A stretch of 64,000 nucleotides of DNA from Symbiobacterium sp. GTDB lineage: Bacteria; Bacillota; Sulfobacillia; UBA995; UBA9673. Made by a program: the position numbers and the translations under genes. Location of the stretch: NCBI GenBank assembly GCA_020725405.1, contig DYFB01000093.1, positions 3,183 to 67,182 on the forward strand, given 5' to 3'. Below are positions 1,863 to 37,863 of this stretch, piece after piece; the stretch's first letter is position 1, and the number at the start of each line of letters is the position of its first letter. Under the pieces are notes generated by a model. It did not search any database, had not been told where the DNA came from, and was given only the letters and a program-made list of their open reading frames with translations.

Positions 1863-4043
1863 ATGCGCAAGCTTCTAGTCTCCGCACTGGTTCTGGCGAT
1901 GGTCACCTCCTTCGCGGGGATGGCCTTCGCCGCCTCCACGACCAGGCTTCACGTCTTCTCGGACGTGACCAACGAGCAGCAGGCCTACTACCTCAACTTC
2001 CTCGGCTCGCTCGGCTACTTCCGGGGGGATACGGGTCCCGGCGGTCCGGCGCGGCCCAACGACACGCTGACCCGGGCCGAGTTCGCCGTGGTCGTGGTGC
2101 GGATGCTGGGCAAGGAGGGGCTGGCCACGATGATGGCCGGCTTCACGCCGCCCTTCAGCGACGCCGCGACCATCCCGGGCTGGGCGGTCGGAGCCATCAA
2201 CGTCCTGGTGAACCTGGATATCCTCCGGGGTAACCCGGACGGGACGCTCCGTCCGAACGACTCGGTGACGGGGGCCGAGGCCATCGCGATGCTGACGCGG
2301 GCCCTGCAGAACGACAAGGCGGTCTCCGGCGTGTGGCCGATGAACTATCTCACCTGGGCTTACGAGAACGGTCTCATCGACCCGCTCGCCGACATCACCT
2401 CCTGGAAGTTCATCGCCCCGATCGGTCCGATCACGCGGGCCCAGATGGCGTTCCTGACCTACAACGCCCTCTGGATCGAGCGCGGTTGGAACCCGGCCGC
2501 GACGCCGGCGCCTGACTTCACCCTGCCCTCGCTCATCGACTCCATCGCCGCTCGGGGCATCGTGGAGGGCTATGACCTGGCCAACTCCAAGGTGACGATC
2601 GACGGGTTCGCGGTCGACCTCGCCTCGGTGGTCACCCTCTACGGCGGGGCCAACCTCGACGCCTTCCTCTATCGCGCGGTGATGGTGGCCTTCGACACGA
2701 CCGACAAGGTGGTCTGGCTCGGCACCGATCCGGGCGCCGTCGTGACCGGGGTCTTCGAGGCCTGGGTTGAGGACACGACGACCACGCCCAGCAAGTGGTA
2801 CATCGAGCTCACCGACGGCCGGAAGGTCCAGTTCGTGCCGGATACCGGCGGAACCGGGACCACCAAGTTCCGGGTGAACGGCGGCGCGCTCCTGACCTAC
2901 AAGGGCGCCGACCCGGGTGGTGTTGAGGACCTTGACGTCGCCAACGCCAGCCTGACGATCGTCCTCGATGACAGCAACGTGGCGACCTACGTCACGGTGT
3001 TCAAGGAGGACTTCGCGGTCTGCTACGTCACGGGCAAGACGACCGAGACCGACCCGGCGACTCCGCTCCTCGGGACGGTGACGCTGGCCGGGGACGTCCC
3101 GGGCACCCTCAACGTGACGACTGCCACGAAGTTCACCGGGGCCGTCGCGAGCTTCGCCGACCTCAAGGCCGGCGACCTCGTCTACGTCGCCTCGGTGGGC
3201 ATGGCCAGGAGCGACGCCTACGCCATCGACACGGTGAAGAACTCGCGCCAGGGCATCATCGACGAGGTCTGGACGGGCTATCCGAGCGGGACCGTGACGG
3301 TCGAGTTCAAGACCGGCTCCCCGGTCGTGCTGTCGGGTGTTGGCGGCGCGACGTACTACGGCGACACGGTGTCCAACGCCAACAAGGACCAGGAGTGGGT
3401 CTTCTGGCTCGATCGTGCCGGCAAGGCCGTTCTCGGTAACCGCGTGGCCGGAGCCGTGGCCCAGTATCCGCTGGTGAAGATCATCGGGTACGAGGACCGG
3501 ACGAAGGACCGCATCACGGTGCAGGACTACACCGGTGCGACCTTCACCTTCACGGTGGGCTCGGGCGACTGGACCTCCCCCGATGCTGGCACCTGTGAGG
3601 TCTTCGACTCGACCTACATCGGTCTGGCCGGTGAGCTTCGCATCGCCGGCCGTGCCGAGGCCGAGAGCAAGACCTCGGGTTCGGACATCGCCATCGGCGA
3701 CGTCATCGGCTGGACGCCCATAACCACGACTAACTACTGGGGCATCTGGGAGATCTACGCCGTCAACACGGCCACCGGCGAGCTGACCATCGGCAACTCC
3801 GGGAGCTACTACTACTTCAAGAACCCGCAGGCGCTCGTCTACGAGTTCGCCTACGGCTCGCCGTACGAGAAGTGCGGCGCGCGTGTCGGGATGGCGGGCC
3901 TCAAGGTGGGCGACATCCTCAGCGTGTTCAAGTTCGATCCGACCGGAGCCGCTGTCGAGGAGCTCTACCTGCTCCTGAAGTTCGTCGACCGCGATAAGGA
4001 CGGCGACATCTGGAACAACGTCGAGCCCTACGTCGCGCCCTAG
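1863..4043 (+). CDS. SLH-domain surface (S-layer-like) protein, paralog B (726 aa)
   Basis: Signal peptide MRKLLVSALVLAMVTSFAGMAFA. Three SLH repeats (FSDVTNEQQAYYLNFLGSLGYFRGD..TRAEFAVVVVRML; FSDAATIPGWAVGAINVLVNLDILRGNPDG; VWPMNYLTWAYENGLID..ITRAQMAFLTYNAL). Strong SD aggaaaggagg 8 nt before the ATG. Confidence 0.85.
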   Translation: MRKLLVSALVLAMVTSFAGMAFAASTTRLHVFSDVTNEQQAYYLNFLGSLGYFRGDTGPGGPARPNDTLTRAEFAVVVVRMLGKEGLATMMAGFTPPFSDAATIPGWAVGAINVLVNLDILRGNPDGTLRPNDSVTGAEAIAMLTRALQNDKAVSGVWPMNYLTWAYENGLIDPLADITSWKFIAPIGPITRAQMAFLTYNALWIERGWNPAATPAPDFTLPSLIDSIAARGIVEGYDLANSKVTIDGFAVDLASVVTLYGGANLDAFLYRAVMVAFDTTDKVVWLGTDPGAVVTGVFEAWVEDTTTTPSKWYIELTDGRKVQFVPDTGGTGTTKFRVNGGALLTYKGADPGGVEDLDVANASLTIVLDDSNVATYVTVFKEDFAVCYVTGKTTETDPATPLLGTVTLAGDVPGTLNVTTATKFTGAVASFADLKAGDLVYVASVGMARSDAYAIDTVKNSRQGIIDEVWTGYPSGTVTVEFKTGSPVVLSGVGGATYYGDTVSNANKDQEWVFWLDRAGKAVLGNRVAGAVAQYPLVKIIGYEDRTKDRITVQDYTGATFTFTVGSGDWTSPDAGTCEVFDSTYIGLAGELRIAGRAEAESKTSGSDIAIGDVIGWTPITTTNYWGIWEIYAVNTATGELTIGNSGSYYYFKNPQALVYEFAYGSPYEKCGARVGMAGLKVGDILSVFKFDPTGAAVEELYLLLKFVDRDKDGDIWNNVEPYVAP

Positions 4044-4103: not shown

Positions 4104-4320
4104 TGCTTGACCAGGCCGGCATCAGCGTTGCGGGCCAGGGAAGCCCTCAGGGGCCGACGGCTGTTCGGCCGGGCGACGGTCCCCGCTTCACCTGCAGGTC
4201 TGCGCAACCGGCTAAGGAGTTCCCCTCCCGTCTCAGGTAGAATCTAGGAACTCCCTCCGTAGACTGGCTGTGAAGCCCTCCCCCGCGGGGAGGAACAACC
4301 AGTTGAAGGAGGTGAAAAGA

Positions 4321-6531
4321 GTGCGCAAGCTAGCGCTGGCCCTCGCCTTGACTATCGCCCTCGCGGCGGCGGCCCCGGCCATGGCCGCGACGAGTGTCCG
4401 GACCAACGTCTTCTCCGATGTCCCCAACGCGGAGCAGGCCTTCTATCTCAACTTCCTCGGGTCCCTCGGCTACTTCCGGGGGGATACCGGACCCGGGGGG
4501 CCGGCCCGCCCCGGTGACACCATCACCCGGGCCGAGTACGCCGTCGTGGTCGTCCGGATGCTCGGCAAGGAGGGCCTGGCCAACCTGCTCGTCGGGTTCA
4601 CCCCGCCCTTCGCCGACGCGGCGGCCATCCCGTCCTGGGCCCTCGGGGCGGTGAACGCCCTCGTCAACCTCGATGTTCTCCGCGGCGGGACGGACGGGCT
4701 TCTCCGCCCGAACAGCCCGGTCACCGGGGCCGAGGCCGTGGCCATGCTCACGCGGGCTCTGCAGAACGACAAGGCCGTGACCGGGGTCTGGCCGATGAAC
4801 TACCTCGCCTGGGCCTTCGACAACGGGCTCATCGACCCGCTTGCCGACGTGACCTCGTGGAAGCTCGTCATGGCCGACGTTCCCATCACGCGGGCCCAGA
4901 TGGCCTTCCTCACCTACAACGCCCTGTTCATTCCGAGGGCCTGGAATCCGAACCTGAAGCCGCCAGACTTCACCCTGCCCTCGCTGGCCGCGGCCTTCGC
5001 CGACACGGACATCCTGACCTCGCACAGCCTGGCCACGTCCAAGGCCACTTTCGCCGGGTACGAGGACCTCGTCGATCTCGCTCCGGTCGTCACCCTTTAC
5101 GGAGGGGCGACCCTCGACGCCTTCCTCTACCGCTCGGTGCGCCTCGCCTTCCGGGACGGGCGGGTCGTCTGGCTCGGGGCCGACCCCGGGGCGGTCGTCA
5201 TCGGGGTCTTCAAGGCCTGGCTCAGGGACCAGGCCACGGGCAAGTGGTACATCGTCCTATCCGATGACCGCAAGGTGGAGTTCGTTCCCCAGACCGGCGG
5301 CACCACCCGCTTCCGGGTCAACGGGGGCGAGCCGCTGACCTACGGCCCCGGCGGCGGCGTGCAGGAGCTCGACCTCGCCGGGGCGAGCCTGACCATCGTC
5401 CTTGACAACCGGAACGTGGCGACCTACGTCACCGCCTTCAAGGAGGATCTCGCCGTCTGCTACGTCAACGGGTCGCCGGTGCCGGATACGGTGGCGACCG
5501 ACGACGTCGTCGGTCGTCTCAACCTGGCCGGAGACCGGACGGCGACCGGTCTCGTCGTCACCACTTCCACCATCTTGACCGGAGCCGCGACCGGCTTCGC
5601 CGGCCTTGCCGACGGGGACCTCGTCTACGTCGCCTCGGTGGGCATGGCCGGGACCGAAGCCTACGCCATCGACGTCGTCAAGGTCACCCGGCGCGGGGTC
5701 ATCGACGAGGTGACGACCACCTATCCGGGGGAGACACGGACCGTCGAGTTCACCTCGGGGTCCCCGGTCGTCCTGGCCGGCCCCGGCGGCGCGGGCTACT
5801 GGGGTGACCCGGTCTCCAACGCCAACAAGGACGAGGAGTGGACCTTCCGCCTCGACCGCTCCGGGAAGGCCCGGCTCGGCCAGAGGGTCGCCGGGCCCCT
5901 CCCCCAGTACCCGCTGGTGAAGATCGTCGGGTGGCAGGACCGGACCAAGGACCGCATCACCGTCGAGGACCACGCCGGGAACACGTTCACCCTGAACGTG
6001 GGCAAGGGCTCGTGGGTCGGAAGCTCCGTCCACGAGTGCTACATCTTCAGCCGGGACGACATCGGCACCGCCGGAGAGCTCCTCGTCGCCGGCAGCGCCG
6101 AGGCCAGGAACAAGACCTCGGGCTCGGATATCGAGGTCGGCGACGTCATCGGCTTCAGGCCCTTCACTCTGTCCGACGACCGTCGCTGGCCGCCGAGCGC
6201 GTTCGTCTTCGAAATCTATCACATCAATACGGCCACCGGGGAAATGACCCTGGGCAGCGGCAGGTACTTCCAGTACCTCGTCAACCCCCGCCCGCTCGTC
6301 TACCGGTTCACCTACGACGAGGAATACGTCGGGGACGGCTGGCTCTGGCCGCTCGCCGACCTCGTGGGTCTCGGGGGCCTGAAGGCGGGCGACACGGTTG
6401 GCGCCGTCCTTTTCGACCCGACCGGACCGGCTCCCGAGCTGTACTACCTCTTCCTCCTCTTCTGGGACAACGACAGTCCACCGGACGGACTGGGTGAGGA
6501 CGACGTCGTGTGGCCCGACCGGGACGACTAG
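4321..6531 (+). CDS. SLH-domain surface (S-layer-like) protein, paralog C (about 736 aa)
   Basis: I placed the start at the GTG 7 nt after SD gaaggagg (VRKLALALALTIALAAAAPAMA). This aligns with paralog B MRKLLVSALV. The ORF-track start at 4270 lacks an SD. Three SLH repeats. The 5' region has about 85% DNA identity with paralog B. Confidence 0.85.
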   Translation: MRKLALALALTIALAAAAPAMAATSVRTNVFSDVPNAEQAFYLNFLGSLGYFRGDTGPGGPARPGDTITRAEYAVVVVRMLGKEGLANLLVGFTPPFADAAAIPSWALGAVNALVNLDVLRGGTDGLLRPNSPVTGAEAVAMLTRALQNDKAVTGVWPMNYLAWAFDNGLIDPLADVTSWKLVMADVPITRAQMAFLTYNALFIPRAWNPNLKPPDFTLPSLAAAFADTDILTSHSLATSKATFAGYEDLVDLAPVVTLYGGATLDAFLYRSVRLAFRDGRVVWLGADPGAVVIGVFKAWLRDQATGKWYIVLSDDRKVEFVPQTGGTTRFRVNGGEPLTYGPGGGVQELDLAGASLTIVLDNRNVATYVTAFKEDLAVCYVNGSPVPDTVATDDVVGRLNLAGDRTATGLVVTTSTILTGAATGFAGLADGDLVYVASVGMAGTEAYAIDVVKVTRRGVIDEVTTTYPGETRTVEFTSGSPVVLAGPGGAGYWGDPVSNANKDEEWTFRLDRSGKARLGQRVAGPLPQYPLVKIVGWQDRTKDRITVEDHAGNTFTLNVGKGSWVGSSVHECYIFSRDDIGTAGELLVAGSAEARNKTSGSDIEVGDVIGFRPFTLSDDRRWPPSAFVFEIYHINTATGEMTLGSGRYFQYLVNPRPLVYRFTYDEEYVGDGWLWPLADLVGLGGLKAGDTVGAVLFDPTGPAPELYYLFLLFWDNDSPPDGLGEDDVVWPDRDD

Positions 6532-6557
6532 AACGCCGGACGGGCCAGGAGGAGAGC

Positions 6558-6587
6558 GGCGGGAGGCACCTCCGCGCGCCTCCCGCC
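6558..6587 (+). terminator. GC-rich hairpin (ggcgggaggc / 10-nt loop / gcctcccgcc) after paralog C
   Basis: Perfect 10-bp inverted repeat 27 nt after the stop. Confidence 0.4.
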
Positions 6588-6709
6588 GTTCTCGCTCCGG
6601 CCGGCCCCCCCAATCTCTTCCGCCCGCCCGGGCGACATAACCCGGCAGGAGGCGCGCTCGCCGGGGCGAAAGAAGCTCAGTTACTAAGAGCTTCCGATCG
6701 ACCCTGGAG

Positions 6710-9139
6710 GTGTCTATTCTGCCATCCCGGAAGACAGCGGTCGGGGACGGCCTGCGGGCCGCGGCCGCTCTGCTCGTCGTCCTGCTCGTTCTCTGGCCTC
6801 TTTTCGCCCTGGGGCTCTACGACCCCGTGCCCCAGTTCTTCGCCTTCTGGCATGCCGCTCTAGTCCTCGGGCTGGTTTTCATCCTCGCCCTGAGGGAGGA
6901 CCGACCCTTCGTGCTGACCGGCCCCCGGGCGGCCGTGGCGGCCCTCTGGCTCGTTTACGTTCTTTCCACCTTCGTGGCCTCGGTCCCCCGGGCCGCGGTG
7001 CAGGAGGTCATCAAGTACGGCCTGTACGGGGTCGTCTTCCTCTCGGTCTCCGAGCTCGTGCGCTCGACCACGCGGGCGGACGACCTCGCTCCTGAGCCCG
7101 CCTCCGCCCTGCGCCGGCTGGTTTCCCCGCCGGGGCTGGTCCTCGGGGTCTGGGGCGCCGCCGTCATCCTTTCCGTGGCCAGTCTTCTCGCGGCCAGCGG
7201 GGTTCTGCCCTTCGACGTCGTCCGGGCCGGGCGTCTCTACACCTTTCTCCAGTACCCGAACTCGGCCGGCTCGCTGGTCGGGGCCGCCTTCCTGACCGGG
7301 CTCGGCCTCAGGCGGGTCTGGAACGGCCGGGGCCGGGTCGTCGACGCCCTGCTCGCCGCGGGTCAGTGGGCCCTTCTTGTCGTCTTCCTCCTCACGGCCT
7401 CCCGCGGGGCCTGGCTGGTCATGCCCGTGGCCCTGGTCGTGACTTTCTTCCTCTGGCCGCCGGGACGCCGGCTGGCCGCGGTCGGCGACATGGCCGCGAC
7501 GGGCCTCGTGGCCGTCGCGGCCGCGCCTCTTCTCTCCGGAGCCTTCGGCCGGCCGCTCGCCGGCGTCGCGCTCGTCCTCGGCGGCCTGGGCGTGGCCGTC
7601 GCCGCCGGCTGGGTGGCCCGCCGCTTCGCGGCCCTCCCCGCCCGGCGCCAGGCGGCGGTCGTCCTGGGAGTGCTCGTCCTCGTCGGCGGCCTCGGGGCGG
7701 GTCTCCTCGCCACCGGGAACCTGCCGGCGGTCCTGGCCGAGCGGCTGACAAACCTCGACCTTTCCCAGCGGTCGGCCTGGGAGCGGCTGGTCTGGGCAAA
7801 GGACGCGTTCGAGATAGTCAAGGACCACCCCCTCCTCGGCGTCGGGGGCGGGGGCTGGGGCTCGCGCTACTACCAGTACCAGAGCTACGGCTACTTCACC
7901 CGGGAGATACACAACGACTTCATGGACATCTGGGTCGAGACGGGGACGGTCGGGCTCGCCGCTTTCCTCGCCCTCATCGGCGCGTCGGCCTACGTGACCT
8001 GGCGGCTGGCCAGGGCGCGACGTGGGCCGGACCCGGAGGGGTCCGCTCTGGTGGCCGCCCTCGGCGGGGCCTGGGTCATGCTCGTCGTCCACAGCGCTCT
8101 CGACTTCAACCTCGCTCTCGGCTGCGTCGGCATCTACCTCTGGGCCACGTTCGGCACGGTCGACGGCCTGTGGGCGGCCGAGGTCTCCCCCGAGGCCCCC
8201 AGGAGCCGGCCGGCCAGGCGCCGGCGCGGCGCCGACCGTTCCGAGGTAGCGGCGGCCGTCCTCTGGCCGCGCCTGGGCGTGACCATCGTCGTCGCCGCCC
8301 TGGCCCTCCTCTCTCTCAGCCTCTATGGCGGCGCCGCGGCCCGGAGCCAAGCCGGCCGGCTGTTTATGGAGCTTAAGCTGGAGGCCAGCTACGCGGCGTT
8401 CGAGCGGGCGACGAACCTGGACCCCTGGTCGCCCCAGCTCCGGATGGACCGGGCCAGCGCCAGTGAGAAGATGTTCAACGCCACCGGCGATTACGTCTTC
8501 ATCCAGGATGCCCGGAGCCAGATGGAGGCGGCCATCCGCCTCGACCGGTACCACCCGAACCATCACGCTCTCTACGGCTCCTTCGCCCTCCGCTACGGGG
8601 GGATAGAGGTGGCCGTGCAGGCCCTGGAGGAGTCCCTGAGACTCCATCCTTTCGAGCCTAAGCGCTACGAGCAGGTGGCCGAGGTCCACTTCCTGCTCGG
8701 CCGGCACTACCTCACCGGCGGCCAGCGCGACCTCGCTCGCCGCCACCTGGAGCAGTCGGTCGCGGTTCTCGACCGCCTTGCGGCGCAGGCGGCGAAGGTC
8801 CCGGATTATGTCCCCGACCTCCTGAGGCTCCCGGCCCTGACGCCGACCGTGGCCCTCCACACCGGTCAGTCCCTCTCCCTTCTCGGCCGGTGGGACGAGG
8901 CCGCGGACCTCCTGCGCTTCGCCCATGAGACCCAGCTCATGCGCCAGGCCCGCGAGACCGAGGAGTCGGTCCGGGTCAGGAAGATGGAGGCGGCGCTGTG
9001 GCTCGGCCTCGTGGAGGAACGCCGCGGGAACGACGAGGAGGCCCGGACCTACCTGGCCGAGGCCCGGGAGGCCCTCCCCCTGATGGGGGTCATCGTCGAC
9101 CAGCTCCGCCCGCTTCTGGGCCAGGCCGGGACCCCTTAG
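6710..9139 (+). CDS. O-antigen ligase / Wzy_C-family polytopic membrane protein fused to a C-terminal TPR-like domain (candidate O-oligosaccharyltransferase or polymerase)
   Basis: Many TM helices. Wzy_C hallmarks FLTASRGAWLVMPVALV and HNDFMDIWVETGTVGLAAFLALI. The C-terminal ~300 aa are soluble helical repeats (LKLEASYAAFERATNLDPW..., YEQVAEVHFLLGRHY...). Confidence 0.8.
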   Translation: MSILPSRKTAVGDGLRAAAALLVVLLVLWPLFALGLYDPVPQFFAFWHAALVLGLVFILALREDRPFVLTGPRAAVAALWLVYVLSTFVASVPRAAVQEVIKYGLYGVVFLSVSELVRSTTRADDLAPEPASALRRLVSPPGLVLGVWGAAVILSVASLLAASGVLPFDVVRAGRLYTFLQYPNSAGSLVGAAFLTGLGLRRVWNGRGRVVDALLAAGQWALLVVFLLTASRGAWLVMPVALVVTFFLWPPGRRLAAVGDMAATGLVAVAAAPLLSGAFGRPLAGVALVLGGLGVAVAAGWVARRFAALPARRQAAVVLGVLVLVGGLGAGLLATGNLPAVLAERLTNLDLSQRSAWERLVWAKDAFEIVKDHPLLGVGGGGWGSRYYQYQSYGYFTREIHNDFMDIWVETGTVGLAAFLALIGASAYVTWRLARARRGPDPEGSALVAALGGAWVMLVVHSALDFNLALGCVGIYLWATFGTVDGLWAAEVSPEAPRSRPARRRRGADRSEVAAAVLWPRLGVTIVVAALALLSLSLYGGAAARSQAGRLFMELKLEASYAAFERATNLDPWSPQLRMDRASASEKMFNATGDYVFIQDARSQMEAAIRLDRYHPNHHALYGSFALRYGGIEVAVQALEESLRLHPFEPKRYEQVAEVHFLLGRHYLTGGQRDLARRHLEQSVAVLDRLAAQAAKVPDYVPDLLRLPALTPTVALHTGQSLSLLGRWDEAADLLRFAHETQLMRQARETEESVRVRKMEAALWLGLVEERRGNDEEARTYLAEAREALPLMGVIVDQLRPLLGQAGTP

Positions 9140-9195: not shown

Positions 9196-10866
9196 ATGCT
9201 TTCCATCGTCGATCTTGTCCCCCACCGACTCGCGGCGGTCCGCCGGCGGTTCACGGCGCGCGCCCTGGCCGCTCTCTTGGTCGTGTCGCTTGCCCTGGCC
9301 CTGCTCGGGACGGCCGCCCTAGGAGCCGGACGGACCGACCGTCCGGCCGCAGGGGTCGACCTTGCCGGCTGGGCCGTTCTCGACGCGGCCCCCGGATGGT
9401 CTCTGGCCTCGGCCGGCGAGACGGCCGGCGGCGCGGCCGGCCCCGTGCCGCCCGCGCTCCCACCGGCCGCCACGGAGGCCGCGAGGGGCCTCCTCACCGA
9501 GGCCTTCGACCTCATCTCCGCGTACTCCCTCCGGACTCCTGACCCCGATGCCCTGGCCAAGGCGGCCATCGAGGGGATGCTCCGCTCCCTCGGGGACCGC
9601 CAGGCCTCCTACTACACGCCCTCCGACTTCGCCCGCTTCATGGCCGAGGTCTCGGGCCGCTACGGGGGTATAGGGGCGAGAGTGGCCATCGAGAATGGCG
9701 CCGTAGTCATCGTCAACACCATCCCGGGGAGCCCGGCCGAGCGGGTCGGGCTTCTCCCCGGCGACACCATCCTGGCCGTGGACGGCCGGAAGACCCAGGG
9801 CCTGGCCCTCGAGGCCGTGGCCGATCTCATCCGCGGGGACCCGGGGACGACGGTGATCCTGACCATCGCCCGTCTCGGCCTCGGCGTCATCCTGGTCGAG
9901 GTGGTCCGGGACGTCATCGAGCTCATCTCGGTCGAGAGCGGGATGCTCGACGACCGGGTGGGCTACATGCGCATCCTGTCCTTCGACGACAACACCGGCC
10001 GGGAGGTTCGGGCCGCCCTGGCCGCCCTGACCGCGGCCGGCATGGAAGGGCTCGTCCTGGACCTGCGCGACAACCCCGGGGGCTACCTCGGGGAGGTCCT
10101 GGCGGTGGCCGAGAACTTCGTTCCCGTCGGGAACCCCGTGGTCTACGTCGACCGCGGGGCTCGGGGCCTCCAGGCCCTTCGCTCCTATGGCTGGGCTCTC
10201 GACCCCATGGGACCCCTTCCCGAGCCGGTCCACCCCCAGTGGCCGGGGCCGACGGTGGTCCTCGTCAACGGCCGGTCAGCGAGCGGGGCGGAGATTCTCG
10301 CCGGAGCCCTGCAGGACTGGAACCTCGCCGTCCTCGTCGGGAGCCAGACCTACGGCAAGGGGTCCGTCCAGACGATCTTCGAGCTCAACAACCACGGCGG
10401 GCTCAGGATTACCACGGCCTGCTACACCTCGGCTCGGGGCCGGGCTATCGAGGGGGTGGGCCTGACCCCTGACGTGATCGTGGAGGAGCCCCCGCCGCCG
10501 GAGCCGATCTTCCAGCTCATCCTTCTCCCCACCCGGTGGACCTACCGGGTGGGGCACGCGGGGAGCGACGTCCTCCTCCTCCAGGCCCGGCTGAGGCAGC
10601 TCGGCTATGATGCGGGACCGGAGGACGGCGTTTTCGGAAAGGAGACCGAGGCCGCGCTCAAGGCCTTCGAGCGCCGGGCCGGGCTCGTCGTTGACGGCGT
10701 CGCCGACCCCGCCACGTGCCGGGCCCTCAACACCGCGCGGCTCCAGGACCATCCGGGCGGGGAGAGCGCGAGCCCGCCCGGGACTCCGGGAGGGGCCCCG
10801 CCGGCCGACCCCGTGCTCGATAGGGGTCTCGAGGTCCTCCGCGGCCTCCTCGGCGGCGGCTCGTAG
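9196..10866 (+). CDS. ctpA: Carboxyl-terminal processing protease (S41 family) with PDZ and a C-terminal peptidoglycan-binding domain
   Basis: PDZ region IPGSPAERVGLLPGDTILAVDG. S41 catalytic region NGRSASGAEILAGALQD..GSQTYGKGSVQT. PG_binding_1-like LLLQARLRQLGYDAGPEDGVFGKETEAALKAFE. SD aggaaggag upstream. Confidence 0.9.
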   Translation: MLSIVDLVPHRLAAVRRRFTARALAALLVVSLALALLGTAALGAGRTDRPAAGVDLAGWAVLDAAPGWSLASAGETAGGAAGPVPPALPPAATEAARGLLTEAFDLISAYSLRTPDPDALAKAAIEGMLRSLGDRQASYYTPSDFARFMAEVSGRYGGIGARVAIENGAVVIVNTIPGSPAERVGLLPGDTILAVDGRKTQGLALEAVADLIRGDPGTTVILTIARLGLGVILVEVVRDVIELISVESGMLDDRVGYMRILSFDDNTGREVRAALAALTAAGMEGLVLDLRDNPGGYLGEVLAVAENFVPVGNPVVYVDRGARGLQALRSYGWALDPMGPLPEPVHPQWPGPTVVLVNGRSASGAEILAGALQDWNLAVLVGSQTYGKGSVQTIFELNNHGGLRITTACYTSARGRAIEGVGLTPDVIVEEPPPPEPIFQLILLPTRWTYRVGHAGSDVLLLQARLRQLGYDAGPEDGVFGKETEAALKAFERRAGLVVDGVADPATCRALNTARLQDHPGGESASPPGTPGGAPPADPVLDRGLEVLRGLLGGGS

Positions 10867-10889: not shown

Positions 10890-12125
10890 GTGGCCGGACC
10901 ATCTGAGCGGCTCGCCGTCCTGACCGTCGTGGCCAACCGGTCGTACGGGGGAGCTGAGCGGCACATCGTCGACCTCTCGGGCGAGCTCGTCGCACGGGGA
11001 CACCGGGTGGGGTGCCTTTTCCCGAGCTCCACGGGCATAGGCGCCATTCTCGACCCCGGGGTGGAGCCCTTCGAAGTGCGTGAGCTCCGGCCTCCTTATC
11101 GCTTCACGGCCGAGTTCCCCAAGGTCATCCGGGCCTTCGGTCCGGACGTCGTCCACCTCCACAGCCCGAGGGCGACCTTCCTGGGCCGGCTGGTCCTCGG
11201 GGCCCTCCCCCGCCGAGCGGGGCGGCCGGCTATCGTCTCCACTGCCCACGGTTGGATACCACGGCGCCTGGCCCTTCGGCCCCTCTACGAGGCGGCCTAC
11301 CTCCTCACGGCCCGCCTCGACGACGTGACCATCGCCGTCTCGCGCGATACGGCCCGGCGCTTCGGACGCTGGGCTCCGCGCCTCAGGACGGTTCCGAACG
11401 GGATAACCCGCGGGGCCGCACTCGGTGAGTACACGGCCTCGCCCGAACGGGGAGTGGTGCGCCTGGGCTTCGTCGGGCGCATCACTCAGGAGAAGGGCTT
11501 TCCTATGGCCCTCGCCGCGTGGGCGGCGGCCCGGGATATCCTGGCGGTCGGAGCCGCGGCCGCTCGTCCCCGGGGCGGGGCGGGTGGCGGCGGATCGCTC
11601 GATGTGGAGCTCCACGTCTATGGTGACGGGCCGCTCTACCGGCAGGCCCGCCGGGCGGCGGCCCGGCTGGCCCGGAGGGGCGCCGGGCGGCGCCACGGCC
11701 GCCCGGTGGCGGCGAGCGGCGGCGTGCACTTCCACGGGTGGGTTCCCCCGGCCGAAATGCCGCGCGTCCTGTCCGGCCTGACGGCGCTCCTCCTCACCTC
11801 TCGCGAGGAGGGTTTGCCCTACGTGGCTCTCGAAGCCATGACCGCCGGCTGCCCGGTGATAGCCACCGCGGTCGGAGGCCTCCCGGAGCTCATCGAGGAC
11901 GGGCGGACGGGCTGGCTCATCCCTCCCGGCGACGCGGAGCGTGCGGCCGAGCTCATCGTCACCCTGGCCACTCGCCCGGACCTCGCCGGGAAGGTCAGGC
12001 GGGCGGCCTGGGAGCGGACGAGGGCTTACTCGGTAGAGGCCATGGTGGACGGAGTCGAAGAGGCCTACCGTCTGGCTCTCCGGCGGCGAGAGGAGGTGCC
12101 GCACAATCAGCGCGGCGCGTCCTGA
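10890..12125 (+). CDS. Glycosyltransferase family 4 (GT-B, retaining)
   Basis: C-terminal GT4 motif EGLPYVALEAMTAGCPVIATAVGGLPELIEDGRTGWLIPPGD. SD gggaggaa before the GTG. Confidence 0.85.
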   Translation: MAGPSERLAVLTVVANRSYGGAERHIVDLSGELVARGHRVGCLFPSSTGIGAILDPGVEPFEVRELRPPYRFTAEFPKVIRAFGPDVVHLHSPRATFLGRLVLGALPRRAGRPAIVSTAHGWIPRRLALRPLYEAAYLLTARLDDVTIAVSRDTARRFGRWAPRLRTVPNGITRGAALGEYTASPERGVVRLGFVGRITQEKGFPMALAAWAAARDILAVGAAAARPRGGAGGGGSLDVELHVYGDGPLYRQARRAAARLARRGAGRRHGRPVAASGGVHFHGWVPPAEMPRVLSGLTALLLTSREEGLPYVALEAMTAGCPVIATAVGGLPELIEDGRTGWLIPPGDAERAAELIVTLATRPDLAGKVRRAAWERTRAYSVEAMVDGVEEAYRLALRRREEVPHNQRGAS

Positions 12126-12210: not shown

Positions 12211-13650
12211 TTGGCCGTGGCCCTGGGCGATCTCGCCACCATCCACGCGGGCTTCCTCACCGCCTTCGTCCTTCGGTTCCACGGGACCCTCCCGGTGGCG
12301 AACTTCAAGGCCTACCTGCGCTCGGCCCCGGGCCTGACCCTTCTGGCCCTGGTCCTCCTCCTCTCCTACGGCCTTTACGACCTCCGCCCCCGGAGCTGGA
12401 GAACGGCGGCCTCCGGCGTGGTTGCGGCCGTCACTCTGCTCACGGCTTTCGGCATGGCCCTGAGCTTCGTCCTCCGGGCCTTCGCCGTCCCGCGAAGCGT
12501 CTTCCTCCTGGCTTGGGTGCTCAACATCCTGCTCCTCCTGGCCTGGCGCAACGGGGTCTGGCGGCTGGCCGTCCGGTCCTGGGGCCCCGAGGGGGCGGTG
12601 GTCGTCGGCCCGGCCGGCGAGGCCGAGGAGTTCGCCCAGAGGTTCTCCGCACCGCGGCGGACCGGCTACCAGGTGACGGCCGTGACCCTGACCGAGAGTC
12701 GGGAGGGACCCCTCCCGTGGTTCCCGGACGCAGCGGCCGCCCTGGATGAGGACGAAGGGGTCGGTCGGCCGGTCGACGCGGCCGGTTTCAGGGCGAGCGG
12801 CGGCCTCCCCGTCTATCCCCTGGCCGCCCTGCCCGCCCTCCTCCGCGGAGAGGCTGGAGGGCCGCCACCTGACGTCCTGGTCGTCACCCCGTCGACGGCC
12901 GGAGAGGACAAGGCCAGGGTCGCCGCGCTGGCCGCGCTCGCCGGGGCCAGACTCCTCATCGTCCCGAGCTACCGCGACCTTCTCGTCCTTGACACGAGGA
13001 TGACGCAGATAGACGACACCCTGGCCTTCGAGGTCGGGCCTTCCGGGATCCCGGCCCACCTTGCCTGGGCCAAGCGCCTGATGGATATCGGCTTCGCCCT
13101 CGCCGGTCTCGCTCTGACCCTTCCCCTCTATCCCCTGGTGGCCGCGGCGGTGGCGCTCTCCTCGCCCGGACCGGTCTTCTACCGCCAGGCGCGGGTGGGT
13201 CTCGGGGGCCGCGTCTACACGATGTGGAAGTTCCGGACCATGGTGGCCGACGCCGAGGCCGCGACAGGCGCGGTCCTGGCCAAGGCCGATGACCCCCGGG
13301 TCACCCCGGTCGGCCGGGTGCTCCGTCGGTTCCGCCTCGATGAGCTCCCGCAGCTCCTGAACGTCCTGGCCGGATCCATGTCCGTCGTCGGGCCCCGACC
13401 CGAGCGCCCGGAGTTCGCCCGGGAGTACGCCCGGATGGTGCCCTATTACGAACACCGGCATCATCTAAAGCCCGGCCTTACCGGGCTCGCCCAGCTCTCG
13501 GTCAGGTACGACACTCCGGTCGAGGAGAAGCTGCGCTACGACCTCCTCTACGCTAAACGCTACTCCCTGCTCCTCGACCTCAGGATAATCTTCTTGACGG
13601 CCAAGGTTGTCCTCATGGGGGAGGAGGCCCATTGGACTCCGGAGAGCTAG
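12211..13650 (+). CDS. Undecaprenyl-phosphate hexose-1-phosphate transferase (WbaP/WsaP-like priming polyprenyl glycosylphosphotransferase)
   Basis: N-terminal TM block. Bac_transf catalytic domain FYRQARVGLGGRVYTMWKFRTMVADAE...RVLRRFRLDELPQLLNVLAGSMSVVGPRPERPEF. Confidence 0.9.
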   Translation: MAVALGDLATIHAGFLTAFVLRFHGTLPVANFKAYLRSAPGLTLLALVLLLSYGLYDLRPRSWRTAASGVVAAVTLLTAFGMALSFVLRAFAVPRSVFLLAWVLNILLLLAWRNGVWRLAVRSWGPEGAVVVGPAGEAEEFAQRFSAPRRTGYQVTAVTLTESREGPLPWFPDAAAALDEDEGVGRPVDAAGFRASGGLPVYPLAALPALLRGEAGGPPPDVLVVTPSTAGEDKARVAALAALAGARLLIVPSYRDLLVLDTRMTQIDDTLAFEVGPSGIPAHLAWAKRLMDIGFALAGLALTLPLYPLVAAAVALSSPGPVFYRQARVGLGGRVYTMWKFRTMVADAEAATGAVLAKADDPRVTPVGRVLRRFRLDELPQLLNVLAGSMSVVGPRPERPEFAREYARMVPYYEHRHHLKPGLTGLAQLSVRYDTPVEEKLRYDLLYAKRYSLLLDLRIIFLTAKVVLMGEEAHWTPES

Positions 13651-15212
13651 CGGTCCTTCCCGAAGATGGAGATAAGCGAGCCGGTCCGGGGAGAGACCGG
13701 GGTCCTGCCCCCGGTACCTCTGTCTACATTCTCGTCACCGCTCCGGCGGCCCTCGCCTATCTCCTGCCGTGGGAACTCCTACCTCCGGAGGCCCACGCCG
13801 CGCTCCTGGCGGCCACAGCCGGTCTGACGCTGCTCCTTGCCGGACGCGACCTCGCTCTGGCTTTCTACCATGCTTTTCTCTGGTCCGGCCTCGTCTCGGT
13901 CGAGCCGGCCCCGGTCGACGTCATCTGGATCGTTCTCGGGCTCCACATGCTGCTCAGCCCGGGCTCGCGGCGGTGCCTGGCGCGAGGCTGGCGGACCCCG
14001 CTGGCCGGTCTTACCCTCGGCCTCGGGGTGATCGGCTTCGCTTCCGTGCCCGGGGCCGCCGACACCGGCCGGGCTCTCTTCTTCCAGGGGGTCACCTTCT
14101 ACCTCTCCTTGGTCGCGGTGTGGTTCATGGCCTCGTTCCGGGCGGCCGACCTGCGAAGGGCAGCCATTCTGGGCTGGGCGGGAGCGGCCCTCTTGGGAGG
14201 CCTCACCGGCATCGCCGGCTCGCTGGGTGGGGGCGACTACCGTACGGCCTTCTACCTCTACGACCGCCTCAAGGCGACGTTCAAGGACCCCAACTGCTTC
14301 GCGAGCTTCACGGCCTTCCCGTTGCTCCTTGCCCTCTACGAGGAGGTTTTCGCCGGCCGGCGGGTGAGCGCCACCGACGGGCCCGCCCGGCCCACCCCGG
14401 AAAGGCCCGTTTTCGGCCGCTGGGCGACACCCCTCGGCGCGGTCTGGCTCGCCGCCATCGGAGTGGCCATGTCCCGGGGCACCTGGCTCGGCCTTGTGCC
14501 CGCCGGGGCGGCCGGGCTTCTCGTTCAAGTCCGACCGCCAGGAATTGACCGGGGCCCCCGGGACGGGCCCGCGGAGGGGGCGGCGAAGGCCGGCAAGGCC
14601 TCCGGGCGGGGCGAGATCCCCCGCCGGGCGATCCGGCTCCTCACCGCGCTCCTTGTCAGCCTCCTCATCCTAGGCGTTGCCGGGGTCGCCCCGGCCATCC
14701 TCCAGCGCCTCGAGCTTAAGCCCTACGACGCCAAGCGCTGGAGCGGACAGGCCCAGGGCCTCGCCCTGTGGGTTGAGCGGCTGGCGGATCTGGAGGGCGA
14801 ACCTTTCACGGGCATCGGACCGGGGCACTACGAGGTGCGCTTTCGCTATGCCGCCCACAACATCTTTCTCCGGGCGGCCCTCGAGACGGGTACGGTCGCT
14901 CTCCTCCTTCTCCTCGGTCTCTACGCGGTGGCCCTGAGCCGGGTCGGACAGGTAATCCGGGGCGCGGTGGCCGGCTCCGCCGGAAAGGCCGCCTGGACCG
15001 ACGGGTCCGCCCCGGCCGAGCGACCCCTGGCCACGGCCGTCTTCGCCTATCTAGTGTTCACCGCGCTCTACGGCCTGGTCATCGATACTCTTCACTGGCG
15101 CCATCTCTGGATGGCCCTGGGCCTGGCCGGCTCCCTCGCCGCGGAGGGCGGCCCGGGCTGCGCGTCGAAAGCGGTGGGGGCTTCGGGGGAAGGGGGAGAC
15201 CATGACGAGTAG
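13632..15212 (+). CDS. Second O-antigen ligase / Wzy_C-family membrane protein (candidate glycan polymerase or ligase)
   Basis: Polytopic. Motifs GVAMSRGTWLGLVPAG and YAAHNIFLRAALETGTVALLLLLGLYAVAL. The start overlaps the end of the priming transferase. Confidence 0.7.
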   Translation: MDSGELAVLPEDGDKRAGPGRDRGPAPGTSVYILVTAPAALAYLLPWELLPPEAHAALLAATAGLTLLLAGRDLALAFYHAFLWSGLVSVEPAPVDVIWIVLGLHMLLSPGSRRCLARGWRTPLAGLTLGLGVIGFASVPGAADTGRALFFQGVTFYLSLVAVWFMASFRAADLRRAAILGWAGAALLGGLTGIAGSLGGGDYRTAFYLYDRLKATFKDPNCFASFTAFPLLLALYEEVFAGRRVSATDGPARPTPERPVFGRWATPLGAVWLAAIGVAMSRGTWLGLVPAGAAGLLVQVRPPGIDRGPRDGPAEGAAKAGKASGRGEIPRRAIRLLTALLVSLLILGVAGVAPAILQRLELKPYDAKRWSGQAQGLALWVERLADLEGEPFTGIGPGHYEVRFRYAAHNIFLRAALETGTVALLLLLGLYAVALSRVGQVIRGAVAGSAGKAAWTDGSAPAERPLATAVFAYLVFTALYGLVIDTLHWRHLWMALGLAGSLAAEGGPGCASKAVGASGEGGDHDE

Positions 15213-16122
15213 ACAGCGCCGCGCCATCGTGACCGGCGGCAAGGGCTTCATCGGCTCGCACCTCGTCGACCGCCTCGAGACCGAGGGCTGGCGGGTCCTG
15301 GTCATCGATAACCGCCTCGGGGAGCCTGAAAACGACGTGACGTCCGTGGCGGCCCAGAGGGCCGCGGCGGCCTTCCGGCCCGATCTGCTGGTCCACGCCG
15401 CCGCCCAGACGAAGGTCCTCTCCAGCATCCTCGACCCGGCCCGGGACGCCGAGTCCAACGTGATCGGAACTATCCGCATGCTCGAGGCGGCCCGGGAGGC
15501 GGGGTCCACCCGGTTCATCTTTCTCTCCTCGGCCGCCGTCTACGGAAACCCGGTCCGCCTTCCGGTCGGCGAGGACCACCCGCGCGGCCCGCTCTGCCCC
15601 TACGGGCTAAGCAAGCTCGCGGCCATGACCTATGTCGACCACTACCGGGTCCACCGGAATCTTCCGGCCGTGACCCTCATTCCGGCTAACGTCTACGGAC
15701 CTCGCCAGGAGACCGGCACCGACGGAGCGGTGGTCAGCTCGTTCATGTCGAGCGTGATCCGTGGCGACCCGCTTCCGGTCGAGGGTGACGGCGGGCAGAC
15801 GCGCGACTTCGTCTACATCGGGGACCTCGTCGAGGCCGTTTGGCTCGCCTGGCTGCGCCTCGATGCCGACCCGACCGGCTTGGAGTCCTGCCTCAATATC
15901 GGCACGGGCCTGGAGACGTCCATCTCCGACCTCGCCGCTCTGGTCGAGGAAGTGGCCGGGCGGAAGACCGGGCGGGTCGAGCGGCCGGCCCGGCCCGGCG
16001 ACATCCGCCGAAGCTGTCTTGCCGGGGAACTCGCTCGCCGGTCCCTCGGCTGGTCGCCGCGCCTGGACCTGCGGGCCGGCCTCGAGCTCACGTTCAACTG
16101 GTGGTCGCACCTCTCGGCCTGA
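15202..16122 (+). CDS. NAD-dependent nucleotide-sugar epimerase/dehydratase (short-chain dehydrogenase/reductase fold)
   Basis: N-terminal Rossmann motif IVTGGKGFIGSHLVDRL. Has the YxxxK region. SD gggggag before the ATG, which overlaps the previous stop. Confidence 0.85.
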   Translation: MTSRQRRAIVTGGKGFIGSHLVDRLETEGWRVLVIDNRLGEPENDVTSVAAQRAAAAFRPDLLVHAAAQTKVLSSILDPARDAESNVIGTIRMLEAAREAGSTRFIFLSSAAVYGNPVRLPVGEDHPRGPLCPYGLSKLAAMTYVDHYRVHRNLPAVTLIPANVYGPRQETGTDGAVVSSFMSSVIRGDPLPVEGDGGQTRDFVYIGDLVEAVWLAWLRLDADPTGLESCLNIGTGLETSISDLAALVEEVAGRKTGRVERPARPGDIRRSCLAGELARRSLGWSPRLDLRAGLELTFNWWSHLSA

Positions 16123-22168: not shown

Positions 22169-22229
22169 GGCTGTTCCTCTCTTAGAAACCGAAGTGCGGT
22201 CATTCTGGGTGATGGAGACAGGCGGCGCG

Positions 22230-37823: not shown

Positions 37824-37863
37824 CCGCTCCCGAACCTTGTCCCGCACGGAGGTAAGACCCAGA

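What the first reader, a model, noticed from the sequence alone, without database searches (positions are those of the whole stretch)
6710..9139. Wzy_C/O-antigen-ligase domain fused to a roughly 300-aa extracytoplasmic TPR-like domain
A protein-binding TPR module on a ligase-family enzyme fits an enzyme that recognises a protein acceptor (O-oligosaccharyltransferase) rather than lipid A-core. It is the first gene after the SLH paralogs and is followed by a CtpA protease with a PG-binding domain.
Basis: partly seen in the sequence, partly recalled or inferred. Interest (0 to 1): 0.55.

Follow-up and report, generated by a model that had tools for sequence, protein, structure and literature searches.

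The report
S-layer-linked glycan ligase with TPR
This gene encodes a membrane enzyme of the O-antigen-ligase family with a protein-binding TPR domain on the outer face of the membrane. It most likely attaches sugars to the neighbouring S-layer proteins, a design already described in Paenibacillus and Neisseria, so it is a new member of a known kind.

Summary
Window 6710-9139 (+) encodes an 809-aa protein with a Wzy_C domain and a C-terminal TPR solenoid of about 269 aa, not 300.

The AlphaFold2 model is confident. Its membrane part has one significant structural match in the PDB, the WaaL O-antigen ligase. Charge bias and helix parity place the TPR on the same, extracytoplasmic side as the catalytic loop.

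The fusion is not rare. The membrane-domain profile finds 1,079 protein clusters at E<=1e-30, and almost all top hits are 700-1,090 aa. A TPR profile hits 80 of 94 family ORFs across Bacillota, including many Paenibacillus.

An SLH-protein gene lies immediately upstream on the same strand in 15 of 74 loci. In close relatives the gene heads an operon with a GT4 transferase and a WbaP-like initiating phosphotransferase.

A 2010 review already reports Wzy_C plus a C-terminal TPR in WsfB, the predicted Paenibacillus alvei S-layer O-oligosaccharyltransferase, and in PglL.

Best reading, at about 0.55: a WsfB-like transferase that puts a lipid-linked glycan onto SLH/S-layer proteins. Main rival: a polymerase or ligase for a wall glycopolymer. 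No biochemical evidence exists. This is a new member of a known kind, of modest interest.

The parts
6710..9139 (+). Gene for the 809-aa Wzy_C/TPR membrane enzyme (stop codon 9137-9139). The start may lie 2-3 codons downstream of the GTG at 6710.
   Evidence: ORF list and translation, GC3 0.91, Pfam, AF2 model with pLDDT 89.6.
6710..8329 (+). Polytopic membrane domain, aa 1-540, with about 15 TM helices and a WaaL-like fold.
   Evidence: AF2 helices. Foldseek against the PDB gives one significant hit, WaaL 7tpg_B, at E 2.7e-5 with TM-score 0.50/0.60.
7367..7969 (+). Pfam Wzy_C (O-antigen ligase) domain, aa 220-420.
   Evidence: PF04932, E 4.8e-15, 56.1 bits against a 31.7 cutoff.
7715..7915 (+). 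Large extracytoplasmic loop, aa 336-402. It carries the family-invariant residues R359, D365, G377/G379/G380/W383 (motif GVGGGGW at 377-383) and H401 (EIHND), and is the presumed catalytic loop.
   Evidence: Invariant columns of the 28-sequence alignment. Equivalence to WaaL R288/H338 and PglL R298/H349 (PMC3643930) is inferred, not shown by residue-level superposition.
8186..8242 (+). Arg-rich cytoplasmic loop, aa 493-511 (SPEAPRSRPARRRRGADRS, 7 K+R).
   Evidence: Charge map and loop table; low pLDDT at 499-505.
8243..8329 (+). Extra last TM helix, aa 512-540, which carries the C-terminal domain out of the cytoplasm.
   Evidence: AF2 helix 508-553, mean hydropathy 1.66.
8330..9136 (+). Extracytoplasmic TPR-like solenoid, aa 541-809, with 12 helices at aa 557-802.
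   Evidence: Pfam TPR_2/12/14, PDB profile hits to CTPR and OGT TPR, Foldseek TPR hits, family-wide conservation in 80 of 94 ORFs.
20..1609 (+). C-terminal part of a third SLH paralog, cut off by the start of the window.
   Evidence: It begins inside the third SLH repeat (VTRAQMAALTYNAL...) and is 30-33% identical to SLH1/SLH2.
1863..4043 (+). SLH paralog 1: signal peptide, SLH repeats, then a Thr-rich domain of about 500 aa. Candidate acceptor or S-layer protein.
   Evidence: Pfam SLH E 9e-17; sequence.
4270..6531 (+). SLH paralog 2, 62% identical to paralog 1, immediately upstream of the enzyme gene.
   Evidence: Pfam SLH; BLASTP.
6548..6602 (+). Long GC-rich hairpin between SLH2 and the enzyme gene, possibly a terminator or attenuator.
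   Evidence: RNA fold of 6529-6712 gives -100.5 kcal/mol, z -3.87. There is no T-run, so the terminator scan did not call it.
9196..10866 (+). CtpA-like S41 protease with PDZ and PG_binding_1 domains.
   Evidence: Pfam. It is also in the cluster in L081 and L085 but not in the wider family.
10890..12125 (+). GT4 glycosyltransferase.
   Evidence: Pfam. In relatives it lies directly after the enzyme gene.
12211..13650 (+). WbaP/WsaP-like polyprenyl-phosphate hexose-1-phosphate transferase, the initiating enzyme.
   Evidence: Pfam Bac_transf E 2.4e-64; NCBIfam EPS_sugtrans 381.6 bits against a 295.55 cutoff.
13632..15212 (+). Second, divergent Wzy_C-like membrane protein of 526 aa without TPR; candidate Wzy polymerase.
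   Evidence: Pfam Wzy_C 24.1 bits, below the cutoff. It shares the RL..PN, MSRGxWL and HN.FL..ETG motifs with the focal family.
15202..16122 (+). NAD-dependent sugar epimerase/dehydratase.
   Evidence: Pfam; also present in the operon in L081 and L083.

Best explanation
The gene most likely encodes a WsfB-like O-oligosaccharyltransferase for SLH-anchored surface (S-layer) proteins.

Proposed pathway, with each step marked as shown or inferred:
- The WbaP-like phosphotransferase (12211-13650) starts a glycan on undecaprenyl phosphate. The GT4 enzyme(s) extend it, using sugars supplied by the epimerase and the GDP-mannose/6-deoxyhexose genes. These steps are inferred from family assignments.
- The lipid-linked glycan is flipped outward. 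No flippase was identified in the window.
- The glycan may be polymerised by the second Wzy_C-like protein. This is inferred.
- The WaaL-fold membrane domain of this enzyme then transfers it en bloc from Und-PP to hydroxyl side chains of the SLH proteins encoded just upstream, as they emerge from the Sec channel. It would use the extracytoplasmic loop bearing R359 and H401. This is inferred by analogy with WaaL, PglL and WsfB.
- The C-terminal TPR solenoid sits on the same outer face as the catalytic loop and holds the protein acceptor. Fold and topology are shown here by prediction; the binding role is inferred.
For: Fold and topology:
- Wzy_C plus TPR by Pfam.
- The TM domain's only significant PDB match is WaaL 7tpg_B (E 2.7e-5).
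- The full-length AF2 model has pTM 0.88.
- The TPR is predicted outside the cytoplasm.

Family:
- TM domain and TPR are co-conserved across Bacillota. The TPR profile hits 80 of 94 family ORFs. Top representative hits are almost all 700-1,090 aa.
- Family members are common in monoderm Paenibacillus, which argues against lipid A-core as the ancestral acceptor.

Context:
- An SLH gene lies immediately upstream on the same strand in 15 of 74 loci, and downstream in 3 of 78. Only 16 other SLH ORFs occur in about 1.3 Mb of flanks.
- In close relatives, 2-3 enzyme paralogs are interleaved with SLH paralogs, and one of them heads a GT4 / Bac_transf / epimerase operon.
- In many Paenibacillus loci a galU-like gene lies convergently just downstream. 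This recalls the galU/wsfB arrangement reported for P. alvei (PMC2943079).

Precedent:
- WsfB and PglL are reported as Wzy_C plus C-terminal TPR. WsaB lacks a TPR but has a TPR protein, WsaA, encoded next to it. S-layer glycan synthesis starts with the WbaP-like enzymes WsaP and WsfP (PMC2943079).
- PglL/TfpO-type transferase genes often sit next to the gene for their acceptor (PMC3643930).
- The pilin transferase TfpW has a periplasmic C-terminal TPR and lies just downstream of pilA (bioRxiv 10.1101/2020.04.19.049825).
Against: - There is no biochemical or genetic evidence for this protein or for any close relative. It is unknown whether the SLH proteins here are glycosylated.
- The PglL-specific Pfam models (PglL_A, Wzy_C_2) do not match even at E<10.
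- Most family loci, about 56 of 74, have no adjacent SLH gene.
- SLH adjacency fits equally well with a role in making the wall polymer that SLH domains bind.
- TPR domains also scaffold polysaccharide export and assembly, so a TPR does not prove a protein acceptor.
- No flippase was found in the window.
- Fold alone cannot separate Wzy, WaaL and O-OTase activities.
Confidence: 0.55

Rival explanations
1. It is a polymerase or ligase for a cell-wall glycopolymer, such as a secondary cell wall polymer or other wall polysaccharide. In this reading the Wzy_C domain joins Und-PP-linked repeat units or hands the chain to a linkage unit. The TPR domain acts as an extracytoplasmic scaffold for chain-length control, or as a dock for LCP ligases or peptidoglycan. 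The SLH genes are neighbours because SLH domains bind that polymer.
For: Wzy polymerases and the B. anthracis proteins WpaA and WpaB belong to the same Pfam clan as Wzy_C. WpaA/WpaB are proposed SCWP polymerases or ligases whose depletion disturbs S-layer assembly (PMC6030368). The window carries TagA, TagO-like and MnaA genes. In close relatives the gene heads a minimal GT4 / PGT / epimerase operon with no other Wzy_C-type polymerase. TPRs are known polysaccharide-export scaffolds (reference cited in PMC2943079).
Against: The window already has two other Wzy_C-type proteins without TPR. One overlaps the PGT gene and one sits next to TagA, so each is better placed to be a polymerase. The focal gene is linked to the Bac_transf (WbaP-like) pathway that starts S-layer glycans, not to the TagO/TagA genes, which lie 12 to 46 kb away. 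Having 2-3 enzyme paralogs interleaved with SLH paralogs but only one PGT/GT4 set is easier to explain by different acceptors than by different polymers. No Wzz/PCP or LCP gene was seen among the ORFs scanned.
Confidence: 0.27
2. It is a true WaaL-type ligase that transfers the glycan to a lipid acceptor. That acceptor would be lipid A-core if this uncultured Bacillota lineage is diderm, or a membrane glycolipid anchor if it is not. The TPR would contact an envelope partner.
For: The only significant structural match is WaaL. Taxonomy is unresolved: Rho matches above 90% come only from unnamed Firmicutes/Bacillota MAGs, so an outer membrane cannot be excluded. The organism has about 70% GC, as do some diderm Bacillota (own knowledge, not tested here).
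Against: Full-length family members with the same TPR are widespread in monoderm, LPS-free Paenibacillus, Thermincola and Symbiobacterium. No lipid A or outer-membrane biogenesis genes were seen among the window ORFs scanned. Sporulation (SpoIID) and SLH/S-layer-type genes are present. Known WaaL proteins are about 400 aa with 12 TM helices and no TPR (7tpg_B is 403 aa).
Confidence: 0.07
3. It is a general O-oligosaccharyltransferase that glycosylates many secreted proteins, as PglL does, rather than an enzyme dedicated to the SLH proteins. In this reading the SLH adjacency only reflects the most abundant substrate.
For: The architecture and arguments are the same as for the best explanation. 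Most family loci lack an adjacent SLH gene. PglL-type enzymes are promiscuous (PMC3643930).
Against: Interleaved enzyme and SLH paralogs in close relatives point to dedicated pairs. The PglL-specific HMMs are not matched.
Confidence: 0.1

Closest known systems
[quoted passage not shown]
   Same: It has a Wzy_C domain plus a C-terminal TPR. It belongs to an S-layer glycosylation system started by a WbaP-like phosphotransferase (WsfP). The acceptor is an SLH-anchored S-layer protein (PMC2943079). Many Paenibacillus genomes hold full-length homologs of the focal protein next to a galU-like gene.
   Different: Sequence homology to WsfB itself could not be tested. Identity to Paenibacillus family members is only 23-27%. 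Here the enzyme gene lies directly after the SLH genes, and in relatives it heads the GT4/PGT operon. In P. alvei, wsfB is reported as monocistronic. The acceptor residue (Tyr, Ser or Thr) is unknown.
PglL / TfpO (PilO) O-oligosaccharyltransferases of Neisseria, Acinetobacter and Pseudomonas
   Same: [quoted passage not shown] A TPR motif has been reported for PglL. Their genes are often adjacent to the acceptor gene, pilin (PMC3643930; PMC2943079).
   Different: The Pfam PglL_A and Wzy_C_2 models do not match the focal protein. The hosts are Gram-negative and the acceptor is pilin or a general set of proteins. The focal protein has about 15 TM helices.
WaaL O-antigen ligase (Cupriavidus metallidurans, PDB 7TPG)
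   Same: It is the only significant structural match of the membrane domain (E 2.7e-5, TM-score 0.50/0.60). It is in the same Pfam family.
   Different: WaaL is 403 aa, has no TPR, ends in the cytoplasm and transfers to lipid A-core. No sequence-level match was found even with a profile. The focal family is common in LPS-free Firmicutes.
TfpW (P. aeruginosa) and eukaryotic TMTC-type GT-C enzymes with TPR domains
   Same: The design is the same: a polytopic glycosyltransferase with a TPR domain on the non-cytoplasmic side. The tfpW gene lies immediately after the gene for its acceptor, pilA. The TMTC comparison rests on my own knowledge.
   Different: The catalytic fold is different (GT-C, ArnT-like, with a DDX motif), and they use monosaccharide lipid donors. 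This is an analogy, not homology.
WpaA/WpaB of Bacillus anthracis
   Same: They are membrane proteins of the same clan, in an SLH/S-layer organism, whose loss disturbs S-layer assembly (PMC6030368).
   Different: They belong to a different Pfam family (PF13425) and are proposed to act on the SCWP, not on protein. No TPR is mentioned for them in the source read.

Membership tests
Wzy_C / O-antigen ligase superfamily (Pfam PF04932) | Match to the family HMM above the curated cutoff | tested here: met
   56.1 bits against a 31.7 cutoff, E 4.8e-15, aa 220-420.
Wzy_C / O-antigen ligase superfamily (Pfam PF04932) | WaaL-like polytopic fold with a large extracytoplasmic loop bearing conserved Arg and His | tested here: met
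   Foldseek gives a single significant hit, WaaL 7tpg_B (E 2.7e-5, TM-score 0.50/0.60). R359 and H401 are invariant in loop 336-402. Residue-level equivalence to WaaL R288/H338 is inferred only.
TPR repeat domain | Tandem helical hairpins matching TPR profiles | tested here: met
   Pfam TPR_2/12/14; profile hits to CTPR at 1e-63 and OGT TPR at 7e-29; 12 helices at aa 557-802.
PglL-type O-oligosaccharyltransferases | Match to PglL_A (PF15864) and/or Wzy_C_2 (PF11846), the motifs flanking Wzy_C | tested here: not met
   Neither model is reported for aa 1-545 at E<=10 or for the full protein at E<=0.01. An H461-x3-D465 motif resembles PglL H400-x3-E404 but was not tested by alignment.
PglL-type O-oligosaccharyltransferases | Gene adjacent to a candidate acceptor-protein gene and not inside an LPS locus | tested here: met
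   An SLH gene is immediately upstream here and in 15 of 74 family loci. No LPS core genes were seen in the window ORFs scanned.
WsfB-type S-layer O-oligosaccharyltransferase (Paenibacillus alvei) | Wzy_C domain with a C-terminal TPR | tested here: met
   the feature is stated for WsfB in PMC2943079.
WsfB-type S-layer O-oligosaccharyltransferase (Paenibacillus alvei) | Association with a WbaP-like initiating phosphotransferase and an SLH-type S-layer protein | tested here: met
   The Bac_transf gene is at 12211-13650. It follows directly after enzyme and GT4 in L081, L083, L085 and L086. SLH genes lie upstream.
WsfB-type S-layer O-oligosaccharyltransferase (Paenibacillus alvei) | Sequence homology to WsfB itself | not testable with these tools
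   The WsfB sequence could not be obtained. A search seeded with a Paenibacillus family member listed many Paenibacillus species but no P. alvei or WsfB name among the best 120.
WsfB-type S-layer O-oligosaccharyltransferase (Paenibacillus alvei) | Loss of S-layer glycosylation when the gene is deleted, or transfer to protein in vitro | not testable with these tools
   This needs an experiment, and the organism is known only from metagenome assemblies.
WaaL lipid A-core O-antigen ligase | Host has LPS or an outer membrane, and the acceptor is lipid A-core | tested here: inconclusive
   The host lineage is unresolved. However, family members are widespread in monoderm Paenibacillus, Thermincola and Symbiobacterium, which argues against this acceptor for the family.
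Wzy O-antigen/EPS polymerase | Works with a Wzx flippase and a Wzz/PCP chain-length regulator in the same cluster | tested here: inconclusive
   No Wzx, MurJ-like or Wzz hit was found among the window ORFs scanned. A MurJ/Polysacc_synt_3 gene is present in L086. Not every small ORF was scanned.

The most novel reading that the evidence does not exclude
In this uncultured high-GC Bacillota lineage, S-layer (SLH) paralogs and Wzy_C/TPR transferase paralogs may form matched enzyme-substrate cassettes. Up to three of each are interleaved in one locus, sharing a single GT4/PGT glycan-building operon. The TPR solenoid would be the specificity module that pairs each transferase with its own S-layer variant. 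That would be a built-in system for switching or mixing differently glycosylated surface lattices.
Probability: 0.25. Interest if true: 0.5.

Novelty: new member of a known kind. Interest (0 to 1): 0.3.

Why it matters
If the assignment is right, this gives a compact, sequence-defined protein O-glycosylation module in an uncultured Bacillota lineage: acceptor SLH protein, TPR-bearing transferase, GT4, and initiating phosphotransferase.

It also shows that the WsfB-like Wzy_C+TPR design is a large, Firmicutes-wide family. The family has about 1,000 clusters at 50% identity and is often encoded right next to SLH proteins.

That would help annotators stop labelling these genes 'O-antigen ligase' in organisms that have no O-antigen. 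It also offers candidates for glyco-engineering of S-layers. It does not change current understanding of how such enzymes work.

Tried and rejected
- Sequence searches of the PDB. The single protein found nothing relevant. The full-length profile was swamped by TPR proteins. The TM-domain-only profile found no WaaL or PglL. Only structure comparison linked the domain to WaaL.
- Reaching WsfB. A search seeded with the Paenibacillus homolog P0031 returned hundreds of Paenibacillus 'O-antigen ligase family' proteins, but no P. alvei or WsfB label in the top 120. The primary WsfB papers (Zarschler 2010; Ristl 2012) are not held, and full-text searches for WsfB gave only the 2010 review.
- PglL-specific Pfam models and NCBIfam. 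There was no PglL_A or Wzy_C_2 match, and only sub-threshold IctB and PEP_O_lig_1 hits.
- Locating the window's own contig with the look-up of encoding contigs. It is not on record.
- Taxonomy through Rho. Hits above 90% identity are all unnamed Firmicutes/Bacillota MAGs, so monoderm versus diderm stays open.
- Co-evolution of SLH and enzyme paralogs across genomes. L081 and L083 are near-identical lineages and the SLH proteins are too diverged (25-45%), so no pairing signal emerged.
- Promoter and terminator consensus scan. It was uninformative at 70% GC. Folding showed the hairpins instead.
- The ORF at 22546-23736 (-), first taken as a possible flippase, is a spurious high-GC frame. The real gene there is a GT1 at 22230-23228 (-).
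- CtpA as a conserved partner was rejected for the family as a whole: 1 of 80 loci.
Full report
**Observation.** The ORF at window 6710-9139 (+) encodes 809 aa. Its codon-position GC profile (GC3 0.91) matches the other genes of this ~70% GC window.

Pfam finds Wzy_C (O-antigen ligase) at aa 220-420 with 56.1 bits against a 31.7 cutoff. It also finds TPR_2, TPR_12 and TPR_14 at aa 622-687 and 760-790. A profile of the protein and 27 homologs hits consensus TPR proteins at E 1e-63 and the TPR domain of O-GlcNAc transferase at 7e-29.

- Upstream are two complete SLH paralogs, 1863-4043 and 4270-6531, which are 62% identical. Each has a signal peptide, SLH repeats and a Thr-rich domain of about 500 aa.
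- The ORF at 20-1609 starts inside an SLH repeat. It is therefore the C-terminal part of a third paralog, cut by the window edge.
- Downstream is an S41 protease with PDZ and PG_binding_1 domains.

There are two small corrections.
- The extramembrane C-terminal part is 269 aa (541-809), not about 300.
- The GGAGG at 6705-6709 touches the GTG start, so the real start may lie a few codons later.

**Structure and topology.** AlphaFold2 with the 28-sequence alignment gives a confident model, with pLDDT 89.6 and pTM 0.88. It has about 15 membrane helices, a long loop at aa 336-402, and 12 C-terminal helices at aa 557-802 forming a TPR-like solenoid.

Foldseek with the full model is dominated by TPR proteins, and WaaL (7tpg_B) is the only membrane protein among the 50 best matches listed. 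A second model of aa 1-505 alone gives a single significant PDB match. That match is again WaaL, at E 2.7e-5 with TM-scores 0.50 and 0.60. Sequence searches of the PDB do not see this relation, even with profiles.

Two arguments place the TPR outside the cytoplasm.
- Charge bias: short loops on the proposed cytoplasmic side hold 23 K+R in 92 residues, against 4 in 40 on the other side.
- Local parity: the order is catalytic loop 336-402, TM, RLARARR, TM, TM, RSRPARRRR, TM 512-540, TPR. This does not depend on the count of N-terminal helices. It puts the TPR on the same side as the Wzy_C loop, which is periplasmic in WaaL and PglL.

No dedicated topology predictor was available.

**Family.**
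- Close full-length homologs (38-49% identity, 780-850 aa, all Wzy_C with or without detected TPR) come from metagenomes.
- A scan of one genome per species found 80 loci, nearly all labelled Bacillota/Firmicutes, plus two MAGs labelled Nitrospiraceae and Desulfovibrionaceae. They include Clostridia MAGs, Thermincola, Phosphitispora, Symbiobacterium, Dethiobacter and about 45 Paenibacillus species, at 23-34% identity over most of the length.
- A profile of the TPR part alone hits 80 of 94 family ORFs, including most Paenibacillus proteins.
- A profile of the TM domain alone finds 1,079 clusters at E<=1e-30 among 1.84 billion representatives. Almost all of the best 150 are 700-1,090 aa long.

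The fusion is therefore the normal state of a large family, not a rarity. Within the close family the TM domain is more conserved than the TPR, at 51% against 40% mean identity.

Invariant residues include R175, Y182, N184, S231-R232-G233, R254, R359, D365, G377/G379/G380/W383 (within the motif GVGGGGW at 377-383), H401 and H461/D465. The Arg and His in the big loop parallel the residues needed in E. coli WaaL (R288, H338) and conserved in PglL (R298, H349) (PMC3643930). That equivalence is inferred, not aligned. The PglL-specific Pfam models do not match.

**Gene context.**
- In 15 of 74 loci with enough upstream sequence, an SLH-protein gene lies immediately upstream on the same strand. In 3 of 78 it lies immediately downstream.
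- Only 16 other SLH ORFs occur in about 1.3 Mb of flanks, roughly 1% of genes.
- Four contigs carrying close metagenomic homologs (39-49% identity) show the pattern more sharply. One enzyme gene is followed directly by GT4, a Bac_transf (WbaP-like) phosphotransferase and often an epimerase. Further enzyme paralogs of 780-800 aa, all with the TPR, are interleaved with SLH paralogs.
- In the window, the CtpA-like gene is inserted between the enzyme gene and GT4. CtpA, a solute-binding protein and a phosphomannomutase recur in this lineage (L081, L085). CtpA is near the family gene in only 1 of 80 genome loci.
- Many Paenibacillus loci have a galU-like gene convergent just downstream.

**Other glycan genes in the window.**
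- A divergent 526-aa Wzy_C-like protein overlaps the phosphotransferase gene (13632-15212).
- A minus-strand, lower-GC block carries TagA, a GT1 and a 425-aa Wzy_C protein (21344-24883).
- There are GDP-mannose dehydratase and epimerase genes, and 34-36 kb further on, TagO-like, MnaA and MurA genes.

So at least two pathways are encoded: one started by a WbaP-like enzyme and one of the TagO/TagA type. The focal gene is linked to the first.

**Comparison with what is known.** A 2010 review of S-layer glycosylation makes four relevant statements (PMC2943079).
- The predicted S-layer O-oligosaccharyltransferases WsaB (Geobacillus) and WsfB (Paenibacillus alvei) contain Wzy_C.
- WsfB and PglL carry a C-terminal TPR motif.
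- WsaB lacks a TPR but has a 168-aa TPR protein, WsaA, encoded just upstream.
- These pathways start with the WbaP-like enzymes WsaP and WsfP.

PglL-type genes are adjacent to pilin genes in 21 of 31 cases (PMC3643930). The unrelated GT-C pilin transferase TfpW also has a periplasmic C-terminal TPR and lies just after pilA. The present gene fits it well.

**Interpretation.** The best-supported reading is a WsfB-like O-oligosaccharyltransferase that moves an Und-PP-linked glycan onto the adjacent SLH/S-layer proteins, with the outer-face TPR holding the acceptor. I put this at about 0.55.

What is shown by prediction and comparison:
- the fold;
- the topology;
- co-conservation of the two domains;
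- enrichment of SLH adjacency;
- linkage to a WbaP-like pathway.

What is inferred:
- the donor;
- the acceptor;
- the role of the TPR.

Rival readings:
- **Polymerase or ligase for a wall glycopolymer.** This is the main rival. Same-clan proteins WpaA and WpaB are proposed for this role in B. anthracis (PMC6030368). SLH adjacency would also fit, because SLH domains bind such polymers. Against it, the window has two better-placed TPR-less Wzy_C proteins, and several enzyme paralogs are interleaved with SLH paralogs around a single glycan-building operon.
- **True lipid A-core ligase.** This is unlikely for the family because members are common in monoderm, LPS-free genera. The host lineage itself is unresolved, since Rho matches above 90% are only unnamed MAGs.
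- **General, multi-substrate O-transferase.** This remains possible.

**Verdict.** Its own refutation tests were not met, but it is neither proven nor new. This is a new member of a known kind. The interest is modest, and lies mainly in the size of the family and the SLH/enzyme paralog arrays in this uncultured lineage.

Noticed in passing
window 4073-4103 and 6548-6602 (+): Each complete SLH gene is followed by a long GC-rich hairpin without a T-run. The one after SLH2 sits in a 184-nt stretch folding at -100.5 kcal/mol (z -3.9). They may be terminators, attenuators or mRNA stabilisers for highly expressed S-layer genes.
   Followed up: partly
L083 514-18011; L085 1-15058; L081 819-13587: In close metagenomic relatives, two or three paralogous Wzy_C/TPR genes (40-55% identical to one another) are interleaved with three or four SLH paralogs, around a single GT4 / Bac_transf / epimerase operon. 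A check for cross-genome pairing of enzyme and SLH paralogs gave no signal.
   Followed up: partly
window 21344-24883 (-): A minus-strand block of lower GC (about 64%, against about 70% elsewhere) encodes TagA/WecG, a GT1 transferase and a 425-aa Wzy_C protein without TPR. It may be a horizontally acquired wall-polymer (SCWP-type) module. The ORF at 22546-23736 in this block is a spurious frame.
   Followed up: partly
window 13632-15212 (+): A third, very divergent Wzy_C-like protein (526 aa, below the Pfam cutoff) overlaps the end of the phosphotransferase gene. It is absent from the equivalent operons of L081, L083, L085 and L086.
   Followed up: partly
window 52873-54687 (+): A single 604-aa ORF fuses a Sua5/YrdC threonylcarbamoyl-AMP synthase, including Sua5_C, to a low-molecular-weight phosphotyrosine phosphatase domain.
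   Followed up: no
window 32788-37440 (+): A 1,550-aa protein combines three SLH repeats with an S8 subtilase domain. It is a large wall-anchored protease, encoded next to a Ser/Thr kinase (30785-32773).
   Followed up: no
window 37440-40089 (+): A small response-regulator receiver protein (127 aa) overlaps the start of a 768-aa protein whose C-terminal half is a carbon-nitrogen hydrolase domain. The long N-terminal part has no Pfam match.
   Followed up: no
window 55858-60522 (+): A TagO/MraY-family GlcNAc-1-P transferase, UDP-GlcNAc 2-epimerase, MurA and SpoIID lie in a row, with MreB at 62301-63374. The SpoIID gene suggests the host is an endospore former, and the transferase and epimerase genes suggest it has a TagO/TagA-type linkage-unit pathway.
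   Followed up: no
Paenibacillus homologs P0045-P0163: Within Paenibacillus, and even within P. odorifer, family members are 50-78% identical to the query over only the first 26-66% of its length. Lengths range from 651 to 941 aa. The C-terminal region appears to vary between strains.
   Followed up: no
window 6705-6712: The Shine-Dalgarno-like GGAGG directly abuts the annotated GTG start of the focal gene. The true initiation codon may be a non-canonical codon a few positions downstream.
   Followed up: no
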